64,000 nt of DNA from Chloroflexota bacterium (GTDB lineage Bacteria; Chloroflexota; Anaerolineae; Promineifilales; Promineifilaceae). The DNA lies in assembly GCA_014584575.1 (NCBI GenBank), contig JACTMP010000063.1:1-64000 (forward strand), in the 5' to 3' direction. The notes under the pieces were generated by a model. It saw only the letters and a program-made list of their open reading frames with translations, was not told the DNA's origin and did not search any database. Both the position numbers and the translations under genes were made by a program. Positions 35,164-47,992 of this stretch are shown piece after piece. Each line of letters opens with the position of its first letter. Position 1 is the first letter of the stretch.

Positions 35164-35197
35164 AACCTGACAGGTTTTCCCAAACCTGTCAGGTTTT
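35164..35197 (+). terminator. hairpin AACCTGACAGGTTTT / AAACCTGTCAGGTTTT after the stop
   Basis: aacctgacaggttttcccaaacctgtcaggtttt. The stem is followed by TTTT. Confidence 0.5.
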
Positions 35198-35600: not shown

Positions 35601-35635
35601 GTTTAATTGCCTGAAATTTGTTTTGGAGAAAAACG

Positions 35636-38600
35636 ATGAAGACAAAACTTCTCTTGGTTGTATTCGTGCCCTTGCTGGTGTTAGTCGTGATCGCTCCCTG
35701 GCGGCACACGGCCGTCAGCGCCAACATCGCCCCCAACCCCAAACCACCTCTGGACGAAACATTGCTGGACATGGCCCAAACTCTGGGCACAGTTCCAGTC
35801 ATTATTGGCGTACACGTGCCCGGTTTTGCCCCGGAAGCGGCCGATGAAGCAGCACAAGTCGCGGCGATTCGTCAGGCGCAAACGGCCGTGCTCGACACAT
35901 TAGCCGGTCATAACATCCACAACGTCAAACAATTCCCCTACATCCCTTACATGGCCCTGTGGGTAGACGAAGCTGGATTGCTGACGTTGCAAGCGGACCC
36001 CACCGTGACCACAATCTATGAAGACCGGTTATACGCCCCGGCCACCAGCGACAGCACCCCTATTATCCGCTCCGACAGCGCCAACAGCATCGGCTATGGC
36101 GGCCAGGGGCGCACGGTGGCCGTGCTGGACACCGGCCTCAACCGCACCCATCCCGACCTGAACGGCAAAGTGGTCTCCGAGGCGTGTTACTCCACCTTCG
36201 ACCCCCTGGCCCTGGCTACCAGTTTATGCCCCAATGGTAACAACAGCCAGACCGGGACGGGTTCATCCAACCCACCACCCAATTATGTGACCGGTTACGA
36301 TCACGGTACCCATGTAGCCGGGATTGTGGCCGGGGTGGCGCCCCAGGCCACTCTCATTGGTATCCAGGTTTTTTCGCGTTTTACCGACATTGCCGGGTCG
36401 CCGCCTGGCCCCTTTACCCCTTGCGCCAACGGCGGACGGCCGTCGCCCTGCACCCTTTCTTATAGTTCTGACCAGATTTTGGGCTTGCAGCGCGTCTATG
36501 CCCTGCGCAACAGCTACAGCATCGCCGCCGTGAACATGAGCCTGGGTGGCGGTTCTTACGCCAGTAACTGTGACAGTCTCAATGCTGCCCTGACCACCAC
36601 CATCCTCAGCCTGCGCACGGCCGGGATCACCACCGTCATCTCGGCTGGCAATAACAGCTATCGCGGTAGCATCGGTGCACCGGCCTGCATTTCCTATGCC
36701 GTCAGTGTGGGTGGCACCACCTCCACGCCAGGCCCGGCGACGCCAGACCAGGTGGGCAGTTACTCCAACGCGGCCAGCATTATGACGTTATGGGCGCCCG
36801 GTGGCTGGATTCATGCGGCCGTGCCCACCTGGGCCACCAGTTGTGGGCCGGGCGTCTCCCCGACCAATAACCGTTGTTACAAACAGGGCACCTCGATGGC
36901 CGCCCCCCATGTGGCCGGGGCCTTAGCCGTCATGCGTTCGGCCGTGCCGGGCGCAACCGTGAACCAGCTCATCAGCGCCCTTACCAGCACCGGGCCATCC
37001 ATCACCGACCAGCGTTCGGGTGGGTTTGTGACCAAACGGCGGCTGGATGTATATGCCGCCACCTGTCAGTTGGCGGGGTGTGACCAGGACGATTTCCGCA
37101 CCCTGACGCTGAACCAGAGTTTGAATGGCTCATTGGGTGTCGGCAATGATTACACCGATGTTTATTATTTCAATGGCACGGCCAACCAGCGGCTGCGCAT
37201 CAGCATGAACCGGCTGTCGGGTACGCTCGACCCGTATCTGGTATTTGTAGACCCCAATGGCAATCTGGTGGCGGTGAATAATGATGGTGGGGCGGGCACC
37301 AATGCGCTGATTGACCCGGTGATATTGCCGGTTAACGGCCGTTACACCATCTATGCCCTGCGCGCTAATTCCGGCTCCGGCACCTACCAGATTCAGGTAT
37401 CACAAGGCACGTTTGGCGCAAACCCCGTGCCCACGCTGCTAAGCATGAACCGCACCTCGGCCACCGTCAACAGCCCCGCCGGTTTTTGGGTGGGGCTGAC
37501 CGGCAATAACTTCTCCTCTAATTCGGTTGTGCGCTGGAATGGGCAGAACCGGCCCACCTCGTATTACAGCAGCACCTTCATCTGGGGCTGGGTGAATGCC
37601 AGCGATACCAACGTTTTGGGCAACTACAGCATCACCGTCTACACCCCCACACCTGGCGGCGGCACCTCGTTTGCCCAAAACTTCCAGATCACCTCAGACC
37701 CGCTGGGGGTGAGCGAGATGTTGGCCCCGCTGCCGGACAGCAGTGTGCCCGTCGGCGTGCAGCAAACCTTTGCCATTAGCTGGACACACCCCATTAGCTC
37801 CTGGCGGGTGATGCAAAACATTGACATTCGCCTGAAAGATGTGACCGACCAGACGGCGTTTTGGATTCGTTTCACTGAAGGCAGCCCCACCAGCACCATT
37901 GGCCTGCTGAACAACAGCGGCGAACATATCGCCAGCAGCCCGCTGGTGAGTGGGCAATACGGCCAGCCGGGAGATATTGAAGTGCCGGATATGGTGACAA
38001 TGCACATGGCCAATACCATCTTTTTTGGCTCCGGGCGCACGGTGATTATCAGTCCCACGGTGACATTTGGCAGCCTGGCCCCTGGCCGCTACATGGTGGA
38101 GTTTACGGTGAACAATGACGAAGGGGAGGTGCAGGATGCGGATGTGGTGGGCGCGTTTTATGTGCTGCCACCGGGTTGTGATACGGCGCTGACCGGGGTG
38201 CAGGTGAATGGGCCGGACACAGGTACGGTGAACAGCAATTACCAGTTCACGGCCGTCATCACCCCCACCGCGCTCGCTGATGTCACCTATGTCTGGTCGC
38301 CAGAGCCGGTGAGTGGGCAGGGCACGGCCGTCGCCACCTTCAACTGGTCACAGGCCGGGATGTGGCCGGTGAACGTCGTCGCCCACCATTGCAGCGGTTT
38401 CCTGGCCGACGTAGCCACCATGGGCATTCGCACCACCGTTGCCCCTGACCTGGAAATCAGCAAGACGGCCCCGGCAACGGCCGTTGCCGGCGACCCCATC
38501 ACCTATACCCTGACCATCACCAACCGGGGCGGCACGGACGCCACCGGGCTGAGTATTACGGACACGCTGCCACCGGGCGCAACTTACGTCTCCGGCGGCA

Positions 38601-39451
38601 GCTACAACGGCAGCCAGGTGAGTTGGAACATTCCCACCCTGCCCGGATACGCCTTCGCCTCGGAGGTTATCGCTGTGGTGACGGCTAACGAGACGATCAG
38701 CAACAGTGTCTACAGCGTGACGGCGGCCGGGGGGTATAGTGCGGTGGGGCAGGAAACGGCCGTGACCCGCATCGTAGACGCCCAGGTAAGGCTGACACCG
38801 CTGTTGACCCGCACACTGCATTACGCGGGCAGCCAAAGTACAGAGATGACCGTGCCTTATGGTTCCGTCTTTGCCGAGACCATGCTGACCTACGACGAGT
38901 TGATGACGCCGCCATATCCGGTTCCATCCGGTTATGCCGGACGTGCCTTCCGCCTGAGTGGGTATCAGGATAACCAGATGATGCCCGACCTGGTGTTGGC
39001 GGAAACGGCCGTGATCACCCTCACCTATTCCCAGACGGCCGTCGCCGGGCTGGATGAAAACCTGCTGACGGTGCATTACTGGGACGGGAATGGCTGGGCA
39101 AGAAATGGGGTGACGTGTGAACGGGATGTGCAGGCCAATTGGGTAAGCTGCCACGTGCCGCGCCCGCCGATGACGGCCTATGCGCTGCTGGAAGGGCGCT
39201 CCACCATCTACCTGCCCTTTATCACCAATGGCCTGACGGCTGAACCCACCCTTTCGGCCACCATCACCGGCATCTCATTGGTGGGCAACCAGTATCATGC
39301 CAACTTCGCAGCGGCCCCTGGTATGTGTATGGTGGCGGCAGCCCCTTTACCGGGTACGGGGTGGCCGACCGGCCCCCGGCGGCCACGCAGCTCTGTGTCC
39401 TGGTGGCGAACCATGATCACAGCATCATTCTGGGCAGCGGCAACTGTATGA
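35636..39451 (+). CDS. S8 family serine peptidase (subtilase) with PPC domain and long C-terminal extension; 3' end frameshifted relative to its downstream duplicate
   Basis: Signal peptide. Catalytic D (VLDTGLNRTHPDL), H (HGTHVAGIVAG) and S (GTSMAAPHVAGALAV). PPC-like segment (DYTDVYYFNGTANQRLRI...GTYQIQV). The last ~48 codons are in a different frame from the intact copy at 41533-41929 because of a 49 nt deletion. Confidence 0.8.
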   Translation: MKTKLLLVVFVPLLVLVVIAPWRHTAVSANIAPNPKPPLDETLLDMAQTLGTVPVIIGVHVPGFAPEAADEAAQVAAIRQAQTAVLDTLAGHNIHNVKQFPYIPYMALWVDEAGLLTLQADPTVTTIYEDRLYAPATSDSTPIIRSDSANSIGYGGQGRTVAVLDTGLNRTHPDLNGKVVSEACYSTFDPLALATSLCPNGNNSQTGTGSSNPPPNYVTGYDHGTHVAGIVAGVAPQATLIGIQVFSRFTDIAGSPPGPFTPCANGGRPSPCTLSYSSDQILGLQRVYALRNSYSIAAVNMSLGGGSYASNCDSLNAALTTTILSLRTAGITTVISAGNNSYRGSIGAPACISYAVSVGGTTSTPGPATPDQVGSYSNAASIMTLWAPGGWIHAAVPTWATSCGPGVSPTNNRCYKQGTSMAAPHVAGALAVMRSAVPGATVNQLISALTSTGPSITDQRSGGFVTKRRLDVYAATCQLAGCDQDDFRTLTLNQSLNGSLGVGNDYTDVYYFNGTANQRLRISMNRLSGTLDPYLVFVDPNGNLVAVNNDGGAGTNALIDPVILPVNGRYTIYALRANSGSGTYQIQVSQGTFGANPVPTLLSMNRTSATVNSPAGFWVGLTGNNFSSNSVVRWNGQNRPTSYYSSTFIWGWVNASDTNVLGNYSITVYTPTPGGGTSFAQNFQITSDPLGVSEMLAPLPDSSVPVGVQQTFAISWTHPISSWRVMQNIDIRLKDVTDQTAFWIRFTEGSPTSTIGLLNNSGEHIASSPLVSGQYGQPGDIEVPDMVTMHMANTIFFGSGRTVIISPTVTFGSLAPGRYMVEFTVNNDEGEVQDADVVGAFYVLPPGCDTALTGVQVNGPDTGTVNSNYQFTAVITPTALADVTYVWSPEPVSGQGTAVATFNWSQAGMWPVNVVAHHCSGFLADVATMGIRTTVAPDLEISKTAPATAVAGDPITYTLTITNRGGTDATGLSITDTLPPGATYVSGGSYNGSQVSWNIPTLPGYAFASEVIAVVTANETISNSVYSVTAAGGYSAVGQETAVTRIVDAQVRLTPLLTRTLHYAGSQSTEMTVPYGSVFAETMLTYDELMTPPYPVPSGYAGRAFRLSGYQDNQMMPDLVLAETAVITLTYSQTAVAGLDENLLTVHYWDGNGWARNGVTCERDVQANWVSCHVPRPPMTAYALLEGRSTIYLPFITNGLTAEPTLSATITGISLVGNQYHANFAAAPGMCMVAAAPLPGTGWPTGPRRPRSSVSWWRTMITASFWAAATV

Positions 39452-39476
39452 ATTTGCCGTAAGCGTGGCCAAGACC

Positions 39477-39510
39477 AGACCCTAAGGGTTTCCCAAAACC
39501 CTTAGGGTCT
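39477..39510 (+). terminator. perfect hairpin AGACCCTAAGGGTTT-CCCAAAA-CCCTTAGGGTCT followed by TATCTTT
   Basis: Read directly. 15 bp stem. Confidence 0.55.
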
Positions 39511-39515
39511 TATCT

Positions 39516-41264
39516 TTGGAGGTAACTATGAAAAACCGGGAATTTTTCCTTTTGTTCAGCGCATTATTGGCGCTAAGTTTTGTCTTGTTTAACATTTTTG
39601 TTACCCACGCCGTTGCCGGTGTTTCCGGTGGTGGTGGGCAGTGGGTGGTGGATCGTCTGGATGACCCGACGCTGCCCGGCGGCTCAGCCTGCACGGAAGC
39701 GCCTGATGATTGCAGCCTGCGTGGGGCACTCAGCGTCTATAATTCGGGCGACCAGATCACCTTCGCCATCACGGGCACCATCACCCTGACCAACGGCGAG
39801 ATACTCATTGCCAATGGCGACGTGACCATCCAGGGGCCAGGCGCGGCCGACCTCATCATCAGCGGCGGTGAGACCAGCCGGATTTTCACCCTCGATCCCA
39901 GCCAGAATGTGACCATTACCGGCGTGACGCTGCGTGATGGGTTTGCCAGCCAGGGGGGCGCAATCTTCAACAATCTCAGCACGCTGACGCTGGCCGATTG
40001 TGTGCTGACGGAAAACACGGCCAGTGACTATGGCGGCGCGATTCAAAACAATGCTGCCACCATTTTCCAACGACCCGCCGGCGCACCCACCTGGGGCGGG
40101 GCGGACGCCCATTTGCTGATTGACAACTGTGTATTGAGCAACAACGCGGCCAGCGGTATAGAGAAAGAAGAGCAGTCTCACGGCGGCCCGACAGGAGTTG
40201 GCGGGGCCATTTACAATACGGCCGTAGGGCCGGGGGCAACGGCCGTTGTCACCATCACCCACAGCACCCTCATCGGCAATACGGCCGATGATGACTTTTA
40301 TGCCGGCGGTGCCATCACCAACTTTGGCTCCGCATTTACCATTCCGGGTAATACCCACGCCGCTGTCTATATCGCCGACAGCACCATCGCCAACAACAGC
40401 GCGCCGAATGGCGATGGCGGCGCTATCGCCAGCTATGCGCTGGATGCCGGTGCATCAACCGCCGTTACCATTCAGAACAGCACCGTCAGCGACAACTCGT
40501 CGGGCAGTGATTTTGGCGGCGGCGGCGGCATTTTCAGCTTTGCCTATAATCGTGATGAGGAGGGGTTGACAGAGGCGACCGTGAACCTGACCGGCAGCAC
40601 CTTTGCCAGTAATGCGGCCACAATGGACAGGGGTGGCGCTCTATTTAATGGCGCACTTGATAGCGGGTCAACGGCCGTCACCCATATCCTCAACAGCACT
40701 TTCAGCGGTAATACAGCGGCCGGCGTGGGCGGCGCTATCGCCAATGATGCCTACAACCGGGATGCGTTGGGCCTGACAAACGCCGCTCTCCACATCACCC
40801 ATGCCAGCTTTGTGGGCAATGATGCGGCTTCCGGCGGGGCCATCGCCAATGTGCCGGTCAGCGAGAACGGAACGTTGGCCGAAGTCCACCTGAAAAACGC
40901 TCTGCTGCACACCAGCAGCGGCGGCGACTGCCAGAACAGCGGCACCATTGATGGTGCCAACAACCTGATTGACGACGACACCTGCGGCACTGATGCCAGC
41001 TTCCGCCTGGGTGCGCCCACGCTGGTTTCGCCGACGCTGGCGGACAATGGTGGCCCCACCCTGACACACGCCTTGCTGGCAGGCACCAATGCCGAAGATG
41101 CCGTGCCGGACGGTGATTGTACGGTAGTCAACACCAGCACCGTCGTTATGGCGGATCAACGCGGTGTGGCCCGGCCTGTGGGCGCAACCTGTGATGTGGG
41201 CGCGGTGGAAGGGGTGATGGTGTCCTTTTCGTTTGGCATTTACCTGCCGGTGATTATCAAGTAG
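39516..41264 (+). CDS. CSLREA-domain / choice-of-anchor-Q-like secreted protein with Pmp (GGAI) beta-helix repeats and C-terminal IYLPVIIK tail
   Basis: Signal peptide. DDCSLRGAL (CSLREA-type) motif. Seven or more GGAI/GGAL repeats. C-terminal DQRGVARPVGATCDVGAVE motif. Ends FGIYLPVIIK. Confidence 0.6.
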   Translation: MEVTMKNREFFLLFSALLALSFVLFNIFVTHAVAGVSGGGGQWVVDRLDDPTLPGGSACTEAPDDCSLRGALSVYNSGDQITFAITGTITLTNGEILIANGDVTIQGPGAADLIISGGETSRIFTLDPSQNVTITGVTLRDGFASQGGAIFNNLSTLTLADCVLTENTASDYGGAIQNNAATIFQRPAGAPTWGGADAHLLIDNCVLSNNAASGIEKEEQSHGGPTGVGGAIYNTAVGPGATAVVTITHSTLIGNTADDDFYAGGAITNFGSAFTIPGNTHAAVYIADSTIANNSAPNGDGGAIASYALDAGASTAVTIQNSTVSDNSSGSDFGGGGGIFSFAYNRDEEGLTEATVNLTGSTFASNAATMDRGGALFNGALDSGSTAVTHILNSTFSGNTAAGVGGAIANDAYNRDALGLTNAALHITHASFVGNDAASGGAIANVPVSENGTLAEVHLKNALLHTSSGGDCQNSGTIDGANNLIDDDTCGTDASFRLGAPTLVSPTLADNGGPTLTHALLAGTNAEDAVPDGDCTVVNTSTVVMADQRGVARPVGATCDVGAVEGVMVSFSFGIYLPVIIK

Positions 41265-41280
41265 CCGAGCCAGCTCTGCC

Positions 41281-41356
41281 AGACCTGTCAGGTCTCTTCG
41301 TTTGTGTTATGCTTGCACGCCAAGACCTGACAGGTTTTTAGAAACCTGTCAGGTCT
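41281..41356 (+). terminator. two hairpins of the AGACCTGNCAGGTCT family after the Pmp-like gene
   Basis: agacctgtcaggtct (41281-41295) and agacctgacaggtttttagaaacctgtcaggtct (41323-41356). Confidence 0.45.
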
Positions 41357-41376
41357 AAACAACCAGGAGTGCAAGT

Positions 41377-41538
41377 ATGACCGACAGTCCACAGCAGCTA
41401 CCCCTTACCTTCTCCTCCCACCATAACCAATCCCTCTTTTCTGACCATTACCTGGACGAAATTTTGCGCCGCAGCGAGAGCTGGCGGCAAGCCATCCCGC
41501 AGGCGCAGGCGTTTCTGGCCTGGCTGCGTGATCTGTGA
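41377..41538 (+). pseudogene. 53-codon stub with good RBS resembling the N-terminus of large RM-type (Type IIG/Eco57I-like) proteins, truncated at the duplication junction
   Basis: AGGAG RBS 7 nt upstream of the ATG. MTDSPQQLPLTFSSHHNQSLFSDHYLDEILRRSESWRQ... The LFSxHYL N-terminus I associate (from memory) with RM enzyme N-termini. The reading frame ends exactly where homology to 39117.. begins. Confidence 0.35.
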
Positions 41539-41929
41539 ACGGGATGTGCAGGCGAATTGGGTAAGCTGCCAGGTGCCGCGCCCGCCGATGACGGCCTATG
41601 CGCTGCTGGAAGGGCGTTCCACCCTTTACCTGCCCTTTATCACCAATGGCCTGACGGCTGAACCCACCCTTTCGGCCACCATCACCGGCATCTCATTGGT
41701 GGGCAACCAGTATCATGCCAACTTCGTTCACTTCTTCTTCAACACCGTGCCGCCAGAGCAGGTCGGTGTGCCTGGCAGCGGCCCCTGGTATGTGTATGGT
41801 GGCGGCAGCCCCTTTACCGGGTACGGGGTGGCCGACCGGCCGCAGGCGGCCACGCAGCTCTGTGTTCTGGTGGCAAACCATGATCACAGCGTCATTCTGG
41901 GCAGCGGCAACTGTATGAATTTGCCGTAG
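41533..41929 (+). pseudogene. detached duplicate of the subtilase 3' end (intact ancestral frame), with its own terminator
   Basis: About 90% identical to 39117-39462 but containing 49 extra nt (encoding VHFFFNTVPPEQVGVPG) that restore a clean frame to NCMNLP*. No plausible independent N-terminus or signal peptide. Confidence 0.45.
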
Positions 41930-41936
41930 TCCGGCA

Positions 41937-41970
41937 AGACCCGAAAGGTTTCAGAAAACCCTTCGGGTCT
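41937..41970 (+). terminator. hairpin AGACCCGAAAGGTTT-CAGAAAA-CCCTTCGGGTCT (diverged copy of the 39477 terminator with partly compensatory changes)
   Basis: Read directly. Confidence 0.5.
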
Positions 41971-42090: not shown

Positions 42091-43344
42091 GTGGATGCCC
42101 AGATAAACAATCGTAACCAGATCATCGCCCAACCATTCAGTAAACAAACGCTTGGGGCAACGCTGAAAGCCGCCTTGAGCGGCCAAATCGCACCTTTTCA
42201 CACGTTTCGCGCGGCCGTTGCCTTTGTAAAACGCTCTGGTGTCCAGCACATTCAGACGGAATTACAGCAATTTGTGCAAAGAGGAGGTCTGGCGCGAGTT
42301 ATCGTGGGGATTGATCAGCTTGGGTCTAGTCGTGAAGGATTGGCCGGTTTGCTAAACGCGGTAGGAGAGTCTGGTTCTGTCTGGGTTAATCGAACGACTG
42401 AAACGTATGTGACTTTTCACCCCAAAGTGTATTTGTTTGCGGCTGATGATGTGGCTTTGCTGATCGTTGGCTCTGGCAATTTGACGGAGGGCGGCCTGTA
42501 CACCAATGATGAAGCTTCGCTGATGTATTGGCTGGCGTTGCAGGAACCAGAGGATCAGGCGCTTTGGCAGGAAATCAACGCCTATTTGGACCAGTGGGGT
42601 GATGCGGCTAATGGCAATGCGATACAACTAACGGCCGATTTGCTCAATGAATTAGTTGAGGCAGGGCTGGTTCCGACAGAGGAGAAAATTGAGCGAGAAG
42701 GGGATGAGGCAACGGCCGTTTCCCCCACACCATCCCCTCAACCGGCAACACAACTGGCGCATGTGTTCTTCAAGAAATCGGCCGTTAAACGCACTGCGCC
42801 ACGTTCCAAAACCAGTGTGCCAAAACCGAAAAAGCCCACTTTACCGCCCGAAGAAGAGGTCTCGCAACCGGTTGAGTTGGCTATGGAAGCGCCCATTGGC
42901 TTTGTTATGATTTTGCAGCGCACAGATGTCGGCACGGGGCAGACAACGACAGGAACCAGTCGCCGTTCGCCAGAAATCTTCATCCCGTTAGCTGCCAGAG
43001 ATGTTTTTCCTGAGTTTTGGGGTTGGCCGACGTTGTTTGTCGAAGACGCAGCGCGACCCGGCAAGTATGATCGTCAGGCGGTCAAGATGCGGATTGGCGG
43101 GGATTTGGTCATGGTTAATATGATGACCTGGCCGGTCAAGCACGATTTCCGGTTGCGTAGCGAAGCGTTACGCAGCGCAGGGGCCATTGGCGATATTTTG
43201 CGCCTGGAAAAGCCAACAGAAGGAACTCCCTTTGCGTATTACGTGGAGATCATCCCGCAGGGAACCAGCGATTACGAGAGTTATCTGGCTTTGTGCGTAA
43301 ACCAGGTGCGAAATTCTGCGAAGCGGTGGGGGTATTACCGTTAG
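42091..43344 (+). CDS. PLD-family (NgoFVII/BfiI-like) restriction endonuclease candidate with C-terminal B3/EcoRII-N-like DNA-binding domain
   Basis: N-terminal ~150 aa carry a single HxK-type motif (TFHPKVYLFAADD) typical of PLD nucleases. The C-terminal ~170 aa (ILQRTDVGTGQTTTG...EIFIPLAARDVFPEFWG) resemble B3-like DNA-recognition domains. Adjacent to two MTases. The stop overlaps the MTase stop region. Confidence 0.5.
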   Translation: MDAQINNRNQIIAQPFSKQTLGATLKAALSGQIAPFHTFRAAVAFVKRSGVQHIQTELQQFVQRGGLARVIVGIDQLGSSREGLAGLLNAVGESGSVWVNRTTETYVTFHPKVYLFAADDVALLIVGSGNLTEGGLYTNDEASLMYWLALQEPEDQALWQEINAYLDQWGDAANGNAIQLTADLLNELVEAGLVPTEEKIEREGDEATAVSPTPSPQPATQLAHVFFKKSAVKRTAPRSKTSVPKPKKPTLPPEEEVSQPVELAMEAPIGFVMILQRTDVGTGQTTTGTSRRSPEIFIPLAARDVFPEFWGWPTLFVEDAARPGKYDRQAVKMRIGGDLVMVNMMTWPVKHDFRLRSEALRSAGAIGDILRLEKPTEGTPFAYYVEIIPQGTSDYESYLALCVNQVRNSAKRWGYYR

Positions 43345-44954
43345 TTGTTGCGGAAGCAAAGGATGGTTTCGGCGCTGCTGGCATTTTTCTTGAAAATATC
43401 ACGCGATACCAGCATTTCCATCGGGATTTGCTCGACCAGATGCAGGCCAGCCGCTTCCCCCAATTCGCCCAATAGCTGATCCGTTTCGATGTCTACGCGC
43501 TCGCCTCCGGCGATGGTGTGATTGTTACCGACCACGACAAAAGCGGGCGCGCCGGGACGCAGCAGACGCGGGAATGTTTCTAGCACCTGACGCATGTCGA
43601 AGAAATAACGGGCTAACAGAGCGGGCAGATTTTGTCGCCGAAAGCCCACATTGGCGTCCTGGTTCAGGTGGTGAATGCGGTCAATAACGGCCGTTATCCC
43701 CCCCGTCAATCTCCCCCGATTTTGTTCATACTCCGCCCAATACGCCTGACGACGGCCGTTGCTAATCTCCCGGTTGCCGATCATCTGGTAATCGCGTGAC
43801 CGATGCCCCGGGCGCGAGAGCAAACCCAAAAAGTAGAGGCTCAAACGGTCTGTATCCAGATAGGGCAGAGCAGTAGCGTAAGGCGGCGAAGTGATAATGG
43901 CATCAATCTGTGCTGTGCGCGCCGCCAGTAATCTATCCGCTTGTTGGGCATTTCCTTCACGAATATCGGCCGCACCAATAGCCTGACCCTGGTTTTCGTA
44001 CAAAAAGGCCAGAATTATCTTTACAGAGCGATTGAGTTCCGTCAAAAACTCAGAAATTGTGTCAGGAATTTCATCAGAAACGTCCCGGCGCACGCGCAAG
44101 TCGTCATCTTTCTGCCAGGAGACACGGCGCAAAATGTTACTCAGGCTGACCATAAACAAGCGGCGGCAAGCAAGATTTGGTATTTGCTGAATACGGATCA
44201 TGATCCGATCCAGCGCGGTTAACACTTCGGGGGCAAACCAATTTGAGAGATACGTGCGGTCTGGCTCGCTGAGAGTGTTTAACCAGGCGAATGAGTGTTC
44301 TGGCGCAGCGGGTTCGGTCAGTAAATCCGTATTCACCGCTGCAAACTGTTCGGCCAATTGCGCTGGCGGCACGGCCAAAATATCGCATTTGGTCTGGCTG
44401 ACAAGCACCGAGAGGGGGTTCATGTCCAGCCCATAAGCCTGACAACCAAGCAGGACAGCTTCAACGGCCGTTGTCCCACTTCCCGACATGGGATCCAGCA
44501 CCTTCGCTCCTGGTTTGATTTCAGCGATGTTGAGTAGAGAACGAACCAATTGAGGGAAGAATTTGCCGCGATATTCGTGGATGCCATGTGGCCCATAGCG
44601 CAGGTTCCGCCGGTTGGGAATGGGCACATGACCGTTAAAGGGAAGCATCGTTTGAAGCTGAACGGCCGTAACCCCATTTCGTGCTAGTGTGGTAGTGGCT
44701 TCGCGGCGCACCTGTTGGGTGAGTTGGAGGGAGGGAACGGCCGTTTCTCCACCCACTCCCTCCCAATAAGCCAGATGCCCGACCAAATCCGCCGGTTCTA
44801 CCGATGATTCAACCCAATAATCGCCCGTCTCCTCATGCGCCAGATTGAGGCAGGCGACAGGTTCATGTCCGGTCAGGGCAGCCAACTCCCTAAGCGCCAA
44901 CGTTTTCTCAAACGGTTGAATGTACGGTTTCAGGCGACAAATCACTTTGCCCAC
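43341..44954 (-). CDS. DNA methyltransferase (alpha class; motif I then SPPY), candidate m4C/m6A
   Basis: Motif I (LDPMSGSGTT) is N-terminal to motif IV (IITSPPYATA). Length 537 aa. Confidence 0.75.
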   Translation of the reverse strand: MGKVICRLKPYIQPFEKTLALRELAALTGHEPVACLNLAHEETGDYWVESSVEPADLVGHLAYWEGVGGETAVPSLQLTQQVRREATTTLARNGVTAVQLQTMLPFNGHVPIPNRRNLRYGPHGIHEYRGKFFPQLVRSLLNIAEIKPGAKVLDPMSGSGTTAVEAVLLGCQAYGLDMNPLSVLVSQTKCDILAVPPAQLAEQFAAVNTDLLTEPAAPEHSFAWLNTLSEPDRTYLSNWFAPEVLTALDRIMIRIQQIPNLACRRLFMVSLSNILRRVSWQKDDDLRVRRDVSDEIPDTISEFLTELNRSVKIILAFLYENQGQAIGAADIREGNAQQADRLLAARTAQIDAIITSPPYATALPYLDTDRLSLYFLGLLSRPGHRSRDYQMIGNREISNGRRQAYWAEYEQNRGRLTGGITAVIDRIHHLNQDANVGFRRQNLPALLARYFFDMRQVLETFPRLLRPGAPAFVVVGNNHTIAGGERVDIETDQLLGELGEAAGLHLVEQIPMEMLVSRDIFKKNASSAETILCFRNN

Positions 44955-46411
44955 TATCGCCCCCTCTGACGCGCTCTGTTACGCAGAATGACAATGTGTT
45001 CATCCTTAATTTTGCCAATTGCCGGGTTGAATGATTTTTTGCTGGCCTGCAAATGGCGCGTCAAATTTGCCGCAGCCTCATAACCGGCTGCCTCCGCTAC
45101 TTCGATCAAAAGTTGATCGTTTTGGATGCGTTGCCCTTTGATTGTCGAATCGCCAATCACAAAACAGGCGTAACGATTTGGCTTCAGCGTATGGGAAAGC
45201 CAGGAGAGAATGGTGAACAATTCGCCGCGAAAGGTATCGGCTGTTGCCCCATTGCTCCCCTTGTGGCTGTATTTGCGATGGCTGCCAATCTCTTCCTGTT
45301 TAAATTTTGGCTGGTCCATATCCAACCATAACATGCGGGTCCGGTGATAAAGGTGATAACTGTAAGCATTGGGATAAGGTGGTGAACAGACAACCAGATC
45401 AACCGGTTCGACGTCTGGCGGTTCTAATATGTTCGCCTGGTGGATGGTAGCGGTGAAACGGCCGTCTACCTCTTCACCAAATTCCACCACCCGCTGTACG
45501 GCCTGCGCCAACGTGCGGCCGAAAAGTTGCAGTGTGTCCCCCGGTTTAATGTTCTTCTGGCGGCGCACATAGCGCGTATCTGAATCCTGCCGCGACACGG
45601 CAACGATAATGGCCGAAAATGCAGTTAGCGCCAATTGCCTTGCTTTCTCTGACCCAAGTGATAGGCATTTTGTCTTGATAAATGACAGTTCTTCGATCAC
45701 CGGCTGGTCAAACCATTCTTCTACACCTTCAAATGCTGGCATCGGGGCAGACTGAGGAAATGGGGATAATTCAGGGAACAAAGGTAAGGTTCCCATAAAA
45801 GTCTGTTGGGCAAAATAACTAATTTCCTCAACCAACCCCCTCAGGCAGCCCACCTCTGCTTCGTCCAATAAAGTCGTTTTGGCCCGGCTGATCAGGCAAG
45901 CCAATGGGTTTGCGTCTATGCCGATAGCGTGGCATTCCAGGCGCAACGCTTCGACTAAAGTCGTGCCACTGCCACAAAACGGATCCAGCACTGTATCGCC
46001 GATTGATGCCAATTCTCGAATAAGTGCCTTCGGAATTTGGGGGATGTATTTCGCCGGGTAAGGGTGGATGGCGTGGGTCAGGTAGCCGGTGTTTGCGTTG
46101 ATAAAATCCCAATCTATCTTTTCCAAACGAGGGATTGCTCCGATGGGCGCTTCATAAACCACCGCGCTTTCTTTGAGGATTGGCGCGGCCGTACCATTGA
46201 CTTGTCGGGCAAATTCCACAATTGTTTGCGCTTCTTCATGGGTGAACAATCGCCAGTCATTCCGATCTCGTCCCGGTTCGGAGATGCGTCCCTCGCGCAG
46301 CCAGCGCAACAGCGTATCGCGGTGAATGCCCGCCATTTGGGAGACTTGCTTGGTGGAATAAGTTGCACCGCTCATAGCGGCATTGTAACGCATACCTGCA
46401 ACTATATGCAA
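44954..46411 (-). CDS. DNA methyltransferase (motif I then SPPY) with N-terminal MerR/excisionase-like HTH
   Basis: HTH (YSTKQVSQMAGIHRDTLLRWLREGRI). Motif I (LDPFCGSGTT). Motif IV (VVCSPPYPNAY). Shares an ATG/stop overlap with the upstream MTase. Confidence 0.75.
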   Translation of the reverse strand: MHIVAGMRYNAAMSGATYSTKQVSQMAGIHRDTLLRWLREGRISEPGRDRNDWRLFTHEEAQTIVEFARQVNGTAAPILKESAVVYEAPIGAIPRLEKIDWDFINANTGYLTHAIHPYPAKYIPQIPKALIRELASIGDTVLDPFCGSGTTLVEALRLECHAIGIDANPLACLISRAKTTLLDEAEVGCLRGLVEEISYFAQQTFMGTLPLFPELSPFPQSAPMPAFEGVEEWFDQPVIEELSFIKTKCLSLGSEKARQLALTAFSAIIVAVSRQDSDTRYVRRQKNIKPGDTLQLFGRTLAQAVQRVVEFGEEVDGRFTATIHQANILEPPDVEPVDLVVCSPPYPNAYSYHLYHRTRMLWLDMDQPKFKQEEIGSHRKYSHKGSNGATADTFRGELFTILSWLSHTLKPNRYACFVIGDSTIKGQRIQNDQLLIEVAEAAGYEAAANLTRHLQASKKSFNPAIGKIKDEHIVILRNRARQRGR

Positions 46412-46531: not shown

Positions 46532-46943
46532 TAAAGCGTAGAAAGCCAGTTTTCTAGCTGTAGCTGAGGGATGGGCTGGAAATCTTTGTCGGTGGTCAAC
46601 AATATCAAATCGTGGCGCAAGGCGATGGCGGCAACGAGCGCATCTACGGTTTCCAGTTGTCGGCCCCGCGACTGCGAAGGGCTATTTGCAATTGGGCAGC
46701 AAACTCGGCGTCTGTTTCATCCGGTATGTAACAAGTCAGCAAAGGCTTAAGGCGTTCCCACTCGGCCAGGTTTTGTTTGGCGCGAGGCAGCAGGGCAATG
46801 CCAAATAATGTTTCAGTGATGCCGGGTACACAAATGGCAAAGTTATCCCCATCATCAAGCCTTTGCAGAATACGCTCACGCAGAGGGTGGCTGATAGTGA
46901 TCAACGGGGAGGCGTGGTTGGTATCCAGCAGGTAATTTGCCAT
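46532..46943 (-). pseudogene. vapC: PIN-domain toxin vapC, disrupted by a single frameshift in a CGCGGGGCC run
   Basis: N-terminal part MANYLLDTNHAS...ALRSRG (46644..46943) stops after ADNWKP. The -1 frame continues RQLETVDALVAAIALRHDLILLTTDKDFQPIPQLQLENWL to a stop at 46532. Together they form a complete VapC. Confidence 0.6.
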
Positions 46944-47010: not shown

Positions 47011-47289
47011 TCAGGACTGGTTCCAGGTTGCCAGATCAAAATCAGGGTCTTCTGGGGCACGGCGTAATGCCTCGGCTAAAGAACCGCTAGCCAGACGTAA
47101 ACTACCAGGATTGACCGGGGTAGCCTGTATTCTGGCAACTACTTCTTCGGGCGAGGGGAATGCCGTTTCTGTTTCCAGAGCATCATGCAACAGTTCAACG
47201 ATCAACTGCTCTAGAGGCACACGTTCCATTTGTGCTTTACGCTGAAGTTTGCGTTCCATTTCGTGGGGCATACTAATGATTACAGTCAT
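47011..47289 (-). CDS. vapB: VapB-type antitoxin
   Basis: 92 aa, upstream of vapC on the same strand. The tail DPDFDLATWNQ is typical of PIN-binding antitoxin tails. N-terminal region is RHH/SpoVT-like. Confidence 0.5.
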   Translation of the reverse strand: MTVIISMPHEMERKLQRKAQMERVPLEQLIVELLHDALETETAFPSPEEVVARIQATPVNPGSLRLASGSLAEALRRAPEDPDFDLATWNQS

Positions 47290-47599: not shown

Positions 47600-47992
47600 T
47601 CAAGACGCTGCGATTGGTGGGGAACTGTCAAGAAGCGCCTGGGCATGAGTTTCAATTTGGCTGATGAAATCGGGCGATATAAGCATTTGACCGGTGCGGG
47701 CATCAATGTCCAGGTGCGCTACCTGGCCTAAAAGTCCGCGACGTGGCGAGGAGAGCAGGATTGGGACGCGCCAGACAATCCGCCCCTGGATGAGCAGAAG
47801 GGTAGGGTCGCCGCCGCCCATCAAATGGTTGACATGGCTGCCCACGTAACCACTGGCCTGCTGGCGGGCGGTGTAGGCGGTTATGTTGACAATCGGTTCG
47901 CCAGGAGCGGCAATAACATATTCGTTTTGATGTAGTACAGTCTCGATATCCATTGCATTTGATCCCGCTTGACGTGAAATGATGAGCCGCAT
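47600..47992 (-). CDS. hypothetical protein
   Basis: 130 aa ORF with no recognisable motif. Confidence 0.25.
   Translation of the reverse strand: MRLIISRQAGSNAMDIETVLHQNEYVIAAPGEPIVNITAYTARQQASGYVGSHVNHLMGGGDPTLLLIQGRIVWRVPILLSSPRRGLLGQVAHLDIDARTGQMLISPDFISQIETHAQALLDSSPPIAAS

What the first reader, a model, noticed from the sequence alone, without database searches (positions are those of the whole stretch)
41377..41538. Orphaned RM-like N-terminal stub truncated exactly at a duplication junction
A 53-codon ORF with a strong AGGAG RBS starts MTDSPQQLPLTFSSHHNQSLFSDHYLDEILRRSESW. From memory this resembles N-termini of large RM/Type IIG-like enzymes. Its frame terminates at 41536-41538, precisely where sequence identity to the subtilase 3' segment (39117 onward) begins. 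So a larger defence gene was apparently cut by the insertion or duplication of that segment. The stub lies just upstream of the BfiI-like R-M locus. The region may be a decaying defence island.
Basis: partly seen in the sequence, partly recalled or inferred. Interest (0 to 1): 0.55.

Follow-up and report, generated by a model that had tools for sequence, protein, structure and literature searches.

The report
Leftover stub of a restriction gene
The 53-codon ORF is the dead front end of a large (~1,350 aa) type IIG restriction-modification gene whose body was lost when a recombination event joined codon 53 to a second copy of a nearby protease gene's tail; this is ordinary turnover of defence genes, not a new system.

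Summary
ORF 41377-41538 has an AGGAG ribosome-binding site and ends in a TGA that the junction itself creates.

- **Junction:** from 41537 on, the sequence is a second copy ("B", 41528-41928) of the subtilase gene's 3' end ("A", 39110-39461). The copies are 96-97% identical.
- **Identity of the stub:** the peptide is the extreme N-terminus of a Chloroflexota clade of 1,220-1,430 aa Eco57I-family type IIG restriction-modification enzymes. The stub stops 13 residues before the first conserved residue and lacks the PD...ExK nuclease motif. No other piece of the gene is in the 64-kb window.
- **Syntenic relative:** in L002 (82-89% nt identity) the same gene reads on past the junction to about codon 116, where it is truncated independently.
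- **Timing:** the stub shows dN/dS 0.06 at dS 0.55, the same dS as its neighbours, so the cut is recent.
- **Locus:** three close relatives carry different defence genes to the right of the stub: a BfiI-like R-M locus, a PD-T7-5-like gene and a GmrSD/HEC-05-like gene. This is a variable defence slot.
- **Mechanism:** microhomology-mediated illegitimate recombination (shared TGT inside GTGAnnTGT). Where copy B came from is not settled.

The finding is ordinary and of low interest.

The parts
41264..41376 (+). Upstream region of the former type IIG gene. It holds hairpin elements (41281-41295 and 41322-41354, ACCTGACAGGT-type) and the AGGAG ribosome-binding site at 41365-41369.
   Evidence: The region is almost identical in L002 (9875-9988), including the RBS.
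41377..41538 (+). The 53-codon stub: codons 1-53 of an Eco57I-family type IIG restriction-modification gene, ending in a TGA created by the junction.
   Evidence: It is 49/53 aa identical to the L002 ortholog. In the family alignment the first column conserved at >=90% is residue 66, and the PD103...E134xK136 motif lies beyond the stub.
41528..41536 (+). Recombination junction. There is imperfect microhomology GTGATCTGT (stub parent GCGACCTGT in L002, copy A GTGACGTGT). The crossover lies within TGT at 41534-41536.
   Evidence: Three-way comparison.
41537..41928 (+). Copy B: a promoter-less 3' fragment of a subtilase gene (a C-terminal domain of about 130 codons). It lacks 13 conserved codons between 41725 and 41726. 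NCBI annotates it as a 113-aa hypothetical protein (P0124).
41937..41970 (+). Terminator-like hairpin hpB after copy B. It differs from hpA at 6 of 34 positions, including one compensatory pair.
39110..39461 (+). Copy A: the 3' end of the resident 1,277-aa subtilase gene (35618-39451). An 88-nt deletion relative to L002 and L030, between 39307 and 39308, shifts the frame of its last ~47 codons.
39477..39510 (+). Terminator-like hairpin hpA after copy A, conserved in L002.
39516..41264 (+). Secreted beta-helix repeat protein gene between copy A and the stub. It is syntenic with L002 5586-7331.
42091..46411 (.). Current occupant of the defence slot: a PLD-family (BfiI-like) nuclease (42091-43344, +) and two N6/N4 DNA methyltransferases (43341-44954 and 44954-46411, both -).
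   Evidence: BfiI structure 2c1l, E 0.008; PADLOC REase_II and MTase_II. GC is 0.50-0.55 here against about 0.60 to the left.

Best explanation
The ORF is a non-functional 5' remnant of a single-chain type IIG restriction-modification gene (Eco57I family, about 1,350 aa; N-terminal PD-(D/E)xK nuclease, gamma-class N6-adenine methyltransferase, TaqI_C-type target-recognition domain).

Shown: promoter region, RBS and codons 1-53 survive. All catalytic and DNA-recognition parts are gone. The break is a microhomology junction (TGT inside GTGAnnTGT) to a 3' fragment of a subtilase gene, and that junction supplies the stop codon. The cut is recent and independent of the truncation seen in the nearest relative.

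Inferred: a single illegitimate-recombination event removed the gene body. Its partner, copy B, had been evolving as part of a working gene. That gene was either the subtilase ortholog of a related strain whose DNA brought in the BfiI-like R-M cassette (homology-facilitated illegitimate recombination), or a paralog lying downstream that was fused to the stub by a deletion. At most the stub yields a 53-aa peptide forming two N-terminal helices with no activity.
For: **Family and position**
- 18 hits of 1,219-1,427 aa carry the match; in 17 it lies at their extreme N-terminus.
- 11 intact 1,320-1,410 aa genes begin with this peptide in Chloroflexota genomes.
- Pfam finds Eco57I in all 13 tested, and TaqI_C in most.
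- PADLOC finds REase_MTase_IIG models, one aligning from residue 46.

**Fold**
- The N-terminal 359 aa of a homolog model at pLDDT 85.7.
- The model matches the nuclease domains of the type IIG enzymes DrdV (prob 1.00, target TM 0.58-0.61) and BpuSI, an HsdR fragment and Cas4.
- The stub covers only the disordered start and helices 23-32 and 34-57.

**Loss of the rest**
- tblastn with five full-length homologs hits only aa 1-53/62 in the 64-kb window.

**Synteny**
- L002 aligns at 82-89% nt over the subtilase, the beta-helix gene and the stub. Homology stops at 41536.
- The L002 ORF reads on (...LRDLYAQEKEQL...) to about codon 116.

**Recency**
- The stub against L002 shows 14 synonymous and 4 nonsynonymous differences, dN/dS 0.06, dS 0.55.
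- The subtilase gives dS 0.58 and the beta-helix gene 0.62.
- P(>=14 of 18 synonymous under neutrality) = 1e-6.

**Origin of copy B**
- A/B identity ends 2 nt after the stop codon, which is TAA in A and TAG in B.
- hpB differs from hpA, whereas hpA is nearly invariant between the window and L002.
- All 4 B-derived substitutions are at third codon positions.
- The R-M cassette carries the lineage's ACGGCCGT octamer at 1.6 per kb, close to the host background.

**Variable slot**
- L056 is 100% identical to L002 over 456 nt of upstream region plus stub, then diverges, and carries a different defence gene.
Against: - No genome showing the state before the event was found, either an intact gene in this synteny or a donor with subtilase-hpB-R-M. 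The origin of copy B is therefore inferred from small numbers: 10 coding differences, 4 of them polarised to B.
- No independent assembly spans the stub/copy-B junction itself. Logan contigs break at the repeats.
- The low dN/dS would also be seen if the stub itself were under selection.
- Expression of the stub was not tested.
Confidence: 0.62

Rival explanations
1. In-situ tandem duplication. A microhomology-mediated tandem duplication of the 2,418-bp unit 39110-41527 created the stub|copy-B junction while leaving an intact type IIG gene in the second unit. A later event then removed the second beta-helix gene and the type IIG gene, or replaced them with the R-M cassette. The core conclusion is the same (a dead stub); only the history differs.
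For: - The copies are direct repeats 2,418 nt apart.
- A and B are each other's closest relatives and share a 3-nt gap relative to L002.
- The junction has the microhomology typical of tandem duplications.
Against: - It needs two events.
- The second event would have to end within 2 nt of copy B's stop codon.
- hpB differs from hpA at 6 of 34 positions, although hpA is almost invariant even between the window and L002.
- All B-derived changes are at third codon positions, which is not expected for a dead duplicate (only 4 changes, so this is weak).
Confidence: 0.28
2. The stub is a functional small protein, or its promoter and 5' end are retained under selection, for example to drive downstream genes or to serve as a conserved recombination arm.
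For: - RBS and start codon are intact and identical in L002.
- dN/dS is 0.06.
- 5' stubs of this family recur: L001 about 72 codons, L002/L056 about 116, L005 about 250, plus in-frame N+C mini-genes P0004, P0008, P0021, P0027 and P0031.
- The L002 and L056 stubs are 100% identical while the adjoining tail differs by 13%.
Against: - The stubs are cut at different codons, so no common product exists.
- The stub contains no column conserved at >=90% in the family.
- The low dN/dS is expected if the gene was intact until recently. With A/B divergence of about 3%, only about 2 neutral nonsynonymous changes are expected since the event.
- The L002/L056 pattern is a recombination mosaic, not slow evolution.
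- No gene of exactly this product is on record in the gene collection.
Confidence: 0.05
3. Assembly artefact: a chimeric join of two regions at a repeat.
For: Short-read contigs from many samples break at the hairpins and at copy B, so no independent contig that I retrieved spans 41536.
Against: - The only sequence shared at the join is 3-9 nt, far below any assembler k-mer.
- Copy B differs from copy A by about 3% and a 49-nt indel, so it is a separate physical copy.
- The copy B -> R-M continuity is reproduced at 100% identity in more than 10 independent samples.
Confidence: 0.03
4. Simple insertion: the subtilase fragment, with or without the R-M cassette, was inserted into an otherwise complete type IIG gene whose 3' part still lies downstream.
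Against: tblastn with five full-length homologs finds nothing beyond residue 53-62 anywhere in the 64-kb window, on either strand.
Confidence: 0.02

Closest known systems
Eco57I-family type IIG restriction-modification enzymes (Pfam PF07669; solved relatives BpuSI 3S1S and DrdV 7LO5)
   Same: Full-length homologs of the stub have the same single-chain layout: N-terminal PD-(D/E)xK nuclease, N6-adenine methyltransferase (LDPAMGSGHFL and NPPY motifs) and a TaqI_C-type recognition domain.
   Different: The window retains only codons 1-53, a clade-specific lead-in of two helices, and none of the domains. The clade (Ardenticatenaceae, Promineifilaceae and other Chloroflexota) has no characterised member.
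BREX PglX and DISARM DrmMI methyltransferases
   Same: The methyltransferase core of the full-length homologs scores against these models (PADLOC DrmMI 1.5e-122, partial; NCBIfam BREX_1_MTaseX 116 bits).
   Different: Scores are far below the NCBIfam cut-offs (116 against 500). The matches cover only the methyltransferase core. No BREX or DISARM partner genes were found among the neighbours examined. The homologs also have an N-terminal nuclease domain that PglX and DrmMI lack (my knowledge of those families).
Homology-facilitated illegitimate recombination and microhomology-mediated deletion (de Vries & Wackernagel 2002, cited from memory)
   Same: A novel joint at 3-9 nt of microhomology, with foreign or duplicated DNA on one side. 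The incoming segment carries a fragment of a gene that is homologous to a nearby resident gene.
   Different: The homologous anchor on the right-hand side was not identified, and no donor genome was found. The mechanism is inferred, not shown.
Defence islands and hotspots with rapid turnover of R-M genes
   Same: Three close relatives carry different defence genes right of the same stub: a BfiI-like R-M locus, a PD-T7-5-like gene and a GmrSD/HEC-05-like gene. The type IIG family is often found decayed.
   Different: No integrase, tRNA or transposase marks the slot in the window. The left border is a gene remnant rather than a conserved core gene.

Membership tests
Type IIG R-M enzyme, Eco57I family | Sequence homology to family members | tested here: met
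   The stub aligns to residues 1-53 of 1,220-1,430 aa proteins. It is 92% identical to the L002 ortholog.
Type IIG R-M enzyme, Eco57I family | PD-(D/E)xK nuclease domain with catalytic D...ExK | tested here: not met
   In the homologs, P102-D103 and E134-x-K136 are >=90% conserved, and the fold matches the DrdV, BpuSI and HsdR nucleases. The stub ends at residue 53 and has none of this.
Type IIG R-M enzyme, Eco57I family | N6-adenine methyltransferase domain (Eco57I/N6_Mtase, NPPY) | tested here: not met
   Present in all 13 homologs scanned. Absent from the stub and from the whole window.
Type IIG R-M enzyme, Eco57I family | Target-recognition domain (TaqI_C type) | tested here: not met
   Present in most homologs. 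Absent from the window.
Gene remnant (pseudogene) | Truncated relative to orthologs, with the ortholog reading on past the break in conserved synteny | tested here: met
   L002 synteny and continuation.
Gene remnant (pseudogene) | Relaxed selection since truncation | tested here: inconclusive
   dN/dS is 0.06 over the whole divergence. The time since the event is too short (about 2 neutral nonsynonymous changes expected) to separate neutral decay from constraint.
BREX PglX | Score above the NCBIfam cut-off, and BREX partner genes | tested here: not met
   Scores of 116 and 112 bits against a cut-off of 500. The neighbours are unrelated genes.
DISARM DrmMI | DrmA, DrmB, DrmC and DrmD genes adjacent | tested here: not met
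   The PADLOC DrmMI hit is partial. The large neighbours in L003, L013, L015, L020, L023 and L025 are glycosyltransferases, a histidine kinase, Roc-COR proteins and metabolic enzymes. Not every neighbour was scanned.
BfiI-like type IIS R-M (neighbouring locus) | PLD-family nuclease plus two methyltransferases | tested here: inconclusive
   PLDc_2 at 5e-4, below the Pfam cut-off. BfiI 2c1l at E 0.008. PADLOC REase_II at 4e-5, and strong MTase_II hits for both methyltransferases. The fold and the C-terminal DNA-binding domain were not tested.

The most novel reading that the evidence does not exclude
The conserved 5' end of this type IIG family (promoter, RBS and the NQSLFSDHYL region, which stays 72-89% identical at the nucleotide level across distant genomes) may be kept on purpose. 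It could act as a recombination arm or expression platform at which downstream defence cargo is exchanged. That would explain why stubs of different lengths recur (window, L001, L002/L056, L005, and the N+C mini-genes) and why different defence genes sit to their right in close relatives.
Probability: 0.07. Interest if true: 0.5.

Novelty: new member of a known kind. Interest (0 to 1): 0.17.

Why it matters
The direct value is for annotation.
- The 53-codon ORF should be marked as a fragment of a pseudogene.
- The annotated 113-aa 'hypothetical protein' (copy B) should be marked as a gene fragment.
- The resident subtilase should be flagged as frameshifted at its C-terminal domain.

More broadly, this is a dated example of defence-gene turnover in uncultured Chloroflexota. 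A single-chain type IIG enzyme was lost by a microhomology junction while a BfiI-like R-M system occupies the same slot, and close relatives hold other defence genes there. Such loss can be tolerated because the restriction and modification activities go together (my knowledge of type IIG enzymes). None of this changes current understanding of R-M biology.

Tried and rejected
- **Word-indexed protein search with the 53-aa peptide.** It found only one relative, another stub. The exhaustive HMMER search and the genome scan were needed to reach the family.
- **PDB, Pfam and PADLOC searches on the stub alone.** No hits.
- **Metagenome scan for closer relatives with an intact syntenic gene.** Only distant hits of 31-58% identity were returned, and none was useful.
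- **Exact-protein look-ups to find another strain with a different arrangement, or a contig spanning the junction.** The stub and P0124 are not on record. Contigs carrying the beta-helix gene end in the hairpins. Contigs carrying the nuclease or the DNA-alkylation gene all show the window's arrangement.
- **EAD7 domain in the type IIG proteins that sit next to Roc-COR-EAD7 genes.** Not found.
- **BREX or DISARM membership of the parent family.** Rejected.
- **Literature searches for the ACGGCCGT octamer, and for highly iterated palindromes in Chloroflexi.** Nothing relevant.
- **GC profile as an island boundary.** GC drops at about 42000, but the right-hand boundary is unclear.

Full report
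**Observation**

The ORF at 41377-41538 (+) encodes 53 residues. It is preceded by AGGAG at 41365-41369, 7 nt before the ATG.

A direct repeat links the 3' end of the 1,277-aa subtilase gene (copy A, 39110-39461) to 41528-41928 (copy B). The two blocks are 96% and 97% identical, and copy B holds 49 extra nt at 41726-41774.

I compared three sequences at the join: the orthologous stub in L002, the window junction and copy A.
- Stub-type sequence runs to 41533.
- TGT at 41534-41536 is shared by both parents.
- Subtilase-type sequence is continuous from 41537.
- The shared TGT sits inside a 9-nt imperfect microhomology, GTGATCTGT against GTGACGTGT.
- The TGA stop at 41536-41538 is therefore made by the join.

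**What the peptide is**

The word-indexed search found one relative, P0001. It is itself a 78-aa stub on a 1.35-kb contig.

A profile of the two stubs, searched against 1.84 billion representatives, gave 122 hits at E<=1e-3. Eighteen of them are proteins of 1,219-1,427 aa, and in 17 the match lies at the extreme N-terminus.

A scan of species-representative genomes gave 25 loci, all Chloroflexota (Ardenticatenaceae, Promineifilaceae, Anaerolineae). Eleven have intact ORFs of about 1,320-1,410 aa that begin with this peptide.

These full-length proteins carry the following:
- Pfam Eco57I, N6_Mtase and MmeI_Mtase, and usually TaqI_C.
- PADLOC REase_MTase_IIG matches, plus a partial DrmMI match.
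- Scores far below the NCBIfam BREX PglX cut-offs.

Their neighbours are not BREX or DISARM genes.

In an alignment of 26 N-terminal regions, the first column conserved at >=90% is residue 66. The PD103...E134-x-K136 motif follows it.

An AlphaFold model of the first 359 residues of a homolog reached pLDDT 85.7. By Foldseek it matches the nuclease domains of the type IIG enzymes DrdV and BpuSI, a type I HsdR fragment, Cas4 and lambda exonuclease. E-values are 0.01-0.1 with probabilities up to 1.00.

The stub corresponds to the disordered first dozen residues and the two helices that precede this nuclease core. It has no catalytic or DNA-recognition residue.

**Is the rest of the gene anywhere?**

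No. tblastn with five full-length homologs hits only residues 1-53/62 at 41377-41571 in the whole 64-kb window. This excludes a simple insertion that splits the gene.

**Orthologous locus**

L002 (JAHDWK010000009.1, Anaerolineae bacterium CHL1) is collinear with the window at 82-89% nt identity over four blocks:
- the gene upstream of the subtilase;
- the subtilase;
- the beta-helix gene;
- the hairpin region plus the stub.

Homology ends at window 41536. In L002 the ORF reads on (...WLRDLYAQEKEQLAHYNEDQLEDKWFKPIFAQLGY...KKPDFFFFPDAAARH) to about codon 116. There it is fused in frame to a CarboxypepD_reg fragment ending in RVYLPVVVRP. The gene is therefore dead in L002 as well, but cut at a different codon.

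L002 also has a clostripain-family (C11) peptidase gene between the beta-helix gene and the stub. It is flanked by copies of the ACCTGTCAGGT hairpin element, and the window lacks it.

**Timing**

Between the window and L002 the 53 codons differ at 14 synonymous and 4 nonsynonymous sites.

| Gene | dS | dN/dS |
|---|---|---|
| Stub (53 codons) | 0.55 | 0.06 |
| Subtilase | 0.58 | 0.10 |
| Beta-helix gene | 0.62 | 0.19 |

The chance of 14 or more synonymous changes out of 18 under neutrality is 1e-6. The gene was therefore under purifying selection for nearly all of the divergence, and the two truncations are recent and independent.

Copies A and B differ by only about 3%. Only about two neutral nonsynonymous changes would be expected in the stub since the event, so the low dN/dS is not evidence that the stub itself is selected.

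**Where copy B came from (inferred)**

- High identity between A and B ends 2 nt after the stop codon, which is TAA in A and TAG in B.
- The following hairpins differ at 6 of 34 positions, including a compensatory pair. By contrast, hpA is nearly identical between the window and L002.
- Ten coding differences were polarised with L002. Four are B-derived, all at third codon positions, and three of those are synonymous. Five are A-derived. Three of those five lie behind A's frameshift and fall on codon positions 3, 2 and 1.
- The R-M cassette carries the lineage's ACGGCCGT octamer at 1.6 per kb.

Together these points weakly favour a copy B that diverged while it was part of a working gene. That gene could be the subtilase ortholog of a related strain in which the BfiI-like R-M cassette sits directly behind it, imported by homology-facilitated illegitimate recombination. 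It could instead be a downstream paralog, fused to the stub by one deletion.

The alternative is an in-situ 2,418-bp tandem duplication followed by a second event that ended exactly at the stop codon. This is less parsimonious but not excluded.

**A variable defence slot**

L056 (Logan SRR21762700) carries the L002-type fusion.
- It is 100% identical to L002 over 456 nt of upstream region plus stub.
- It is then 13% divergent over the next 129 nt.
- Beyond that it is unrelated, with a 752-aa GmrSD_N/SLFN_AlbA_2 gene (PADLOC HEC-05, 9e-36).

In the same position L002 has a 388-aa PD-T7-5-like gene. The window has a PLD-family (BfiI-like) nuclease and two methyltransferases. The DNA to the right of the stub is thus exchanged among close relatives.

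**Family-wide decay**

Of the 18 genome loci that cover the whole gene, 7 are disrupted:
- 5' stubs in L002 and L005 (L001, a metagenome contig outside this count, is also a 5' stub);
- frameshifts in L006, L010 and L012;
- insertions of about 1 kb in L014 and L022.

Several database proteins are N-terminus-to-C-terminus mini-genes left by large internal deletions: P0004, P0008, P0021, P0027 and P0031.

**Robustness of the assembly**

Copy B followed by the R-M locus is reproduced at 100% identity in more than ten independent samples. No contig that I retrieved spans 41536, because short-read assemblies break at the repeats. The 3-9 nt shared at the joint is too short to cause a chimeric assembly.

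**Verdict**

The feature is a recent pseudogene stub of an Eco57I-family type IIG R-M gene, at a microhomology junction, in a variable defence slot. It is an ordinary outcome of R-M turnover, so interest is low.

Noticed in passing
whole window; also L001-L026: The palindromic octamer ACGGCCGT occurs 140 times in 64 kb against 1.5 expected, and the next most frequent 8-mer palindrome occurs 4 times. It lies inside genes and between them. It is present at 0.6-2.6 per kb in 24 of 26 related Chloroflexota loci and absent from L008 and L013. This is a HIP1-like highly iterated palindrome. I found no description of it in the paper library.
   Followed up: partly
39307/39308 (copy A); 41725/41726 (copy B); L030 154-191: The resident subtilase lacks 88 nt that are present in L002 and L030. 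This shifts the frame of its conserved C-terminal domain. Copy B in the window lacks 39 nt (13 conserved codons, TTAGFTPDIMHMH) that copy B has in sample DRR859381 (L030), which is otherwise 100% identical over 6.4 kb. Both deletions start after the same base.
   Followed up: partly
window 39200-39461 and 41618-41928; 41240-41264; L002 9800-9822 and 10510-10534: Secreted proteins here end in a YLPV(I/V)(I/V)(K/R) motif: the beta-helix protein ...GIYLPVIIK, the L002 C11 peptidase ...IFLPVIVR, and the L002 tail ...VYLPVVVRP. The subtilase has YLPFITNG followed by a conserved domain of about 90 aa (HVHFFFNTVPPEQAGxPGxGPWxVYGGxSPFTGYGxADRPxxATQLCVLVANPDHSVxxGxGNCxxLP) with no Pfam model. This may be a lineage-specific C-terminal sorting signal or domain.
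   Followed up: partly
L015 14112-16934; L020 6146-8722; L023 14022-16268: In three genomes the intact type IIG gene is followed immediately (0-2 nt gap) by a gene for an LRR-Roc-COR-EAD7 GTPase, a conflict-system type of protein. No EAD7 domain was detected in the type IIG proteins themselves.
   Followed up: partly
P0004, P0008, P0021, P0027, P0031; L014 11764-12968; L022 13528-14526: Many members of this type IIG clade are decayed. Some are in-frame mini-genes that join the N-terminal 47-160 residues to the last 40-90 residues. Others are frameshifted copies or copies interrupted by insertions of about 1 kb.
   Followed up: partly
window 35165-35197, 41281-41295, 41322-41354; L002 7338-7362 and 9881-9905: Paired hairpin elements (ACCTGACAGGTTTTnnnAAACCTGTCAGGT) sit between genes. 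In L002, copies flank an 817-aa clostripain-family peptidase gene that the window lacks, which suggests deletion or insertion between the repeats. Short-read contigs also break at these elements.
   Followed up: no
L056 733-2991; L002 10592-11758: Close relatives carry different defence-type genes to the right of the same type IIG stub: a GmrSD_N/SLFN_AlbA_2 protein (PADLOC HEC-05) in L056 and a PD-T7-5-like protein in L002.
   Followed up: partly
window 46644-46943, 47011-47289, 47600-47992 (- strand): Three small ORFs between the R-M locus and the DNA-alkylation repair gene have no Pfam match at E<=1e-4. The layout of the first pair looks like a toxin-antitoxin pair, but this was not established.
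   Followed up: no
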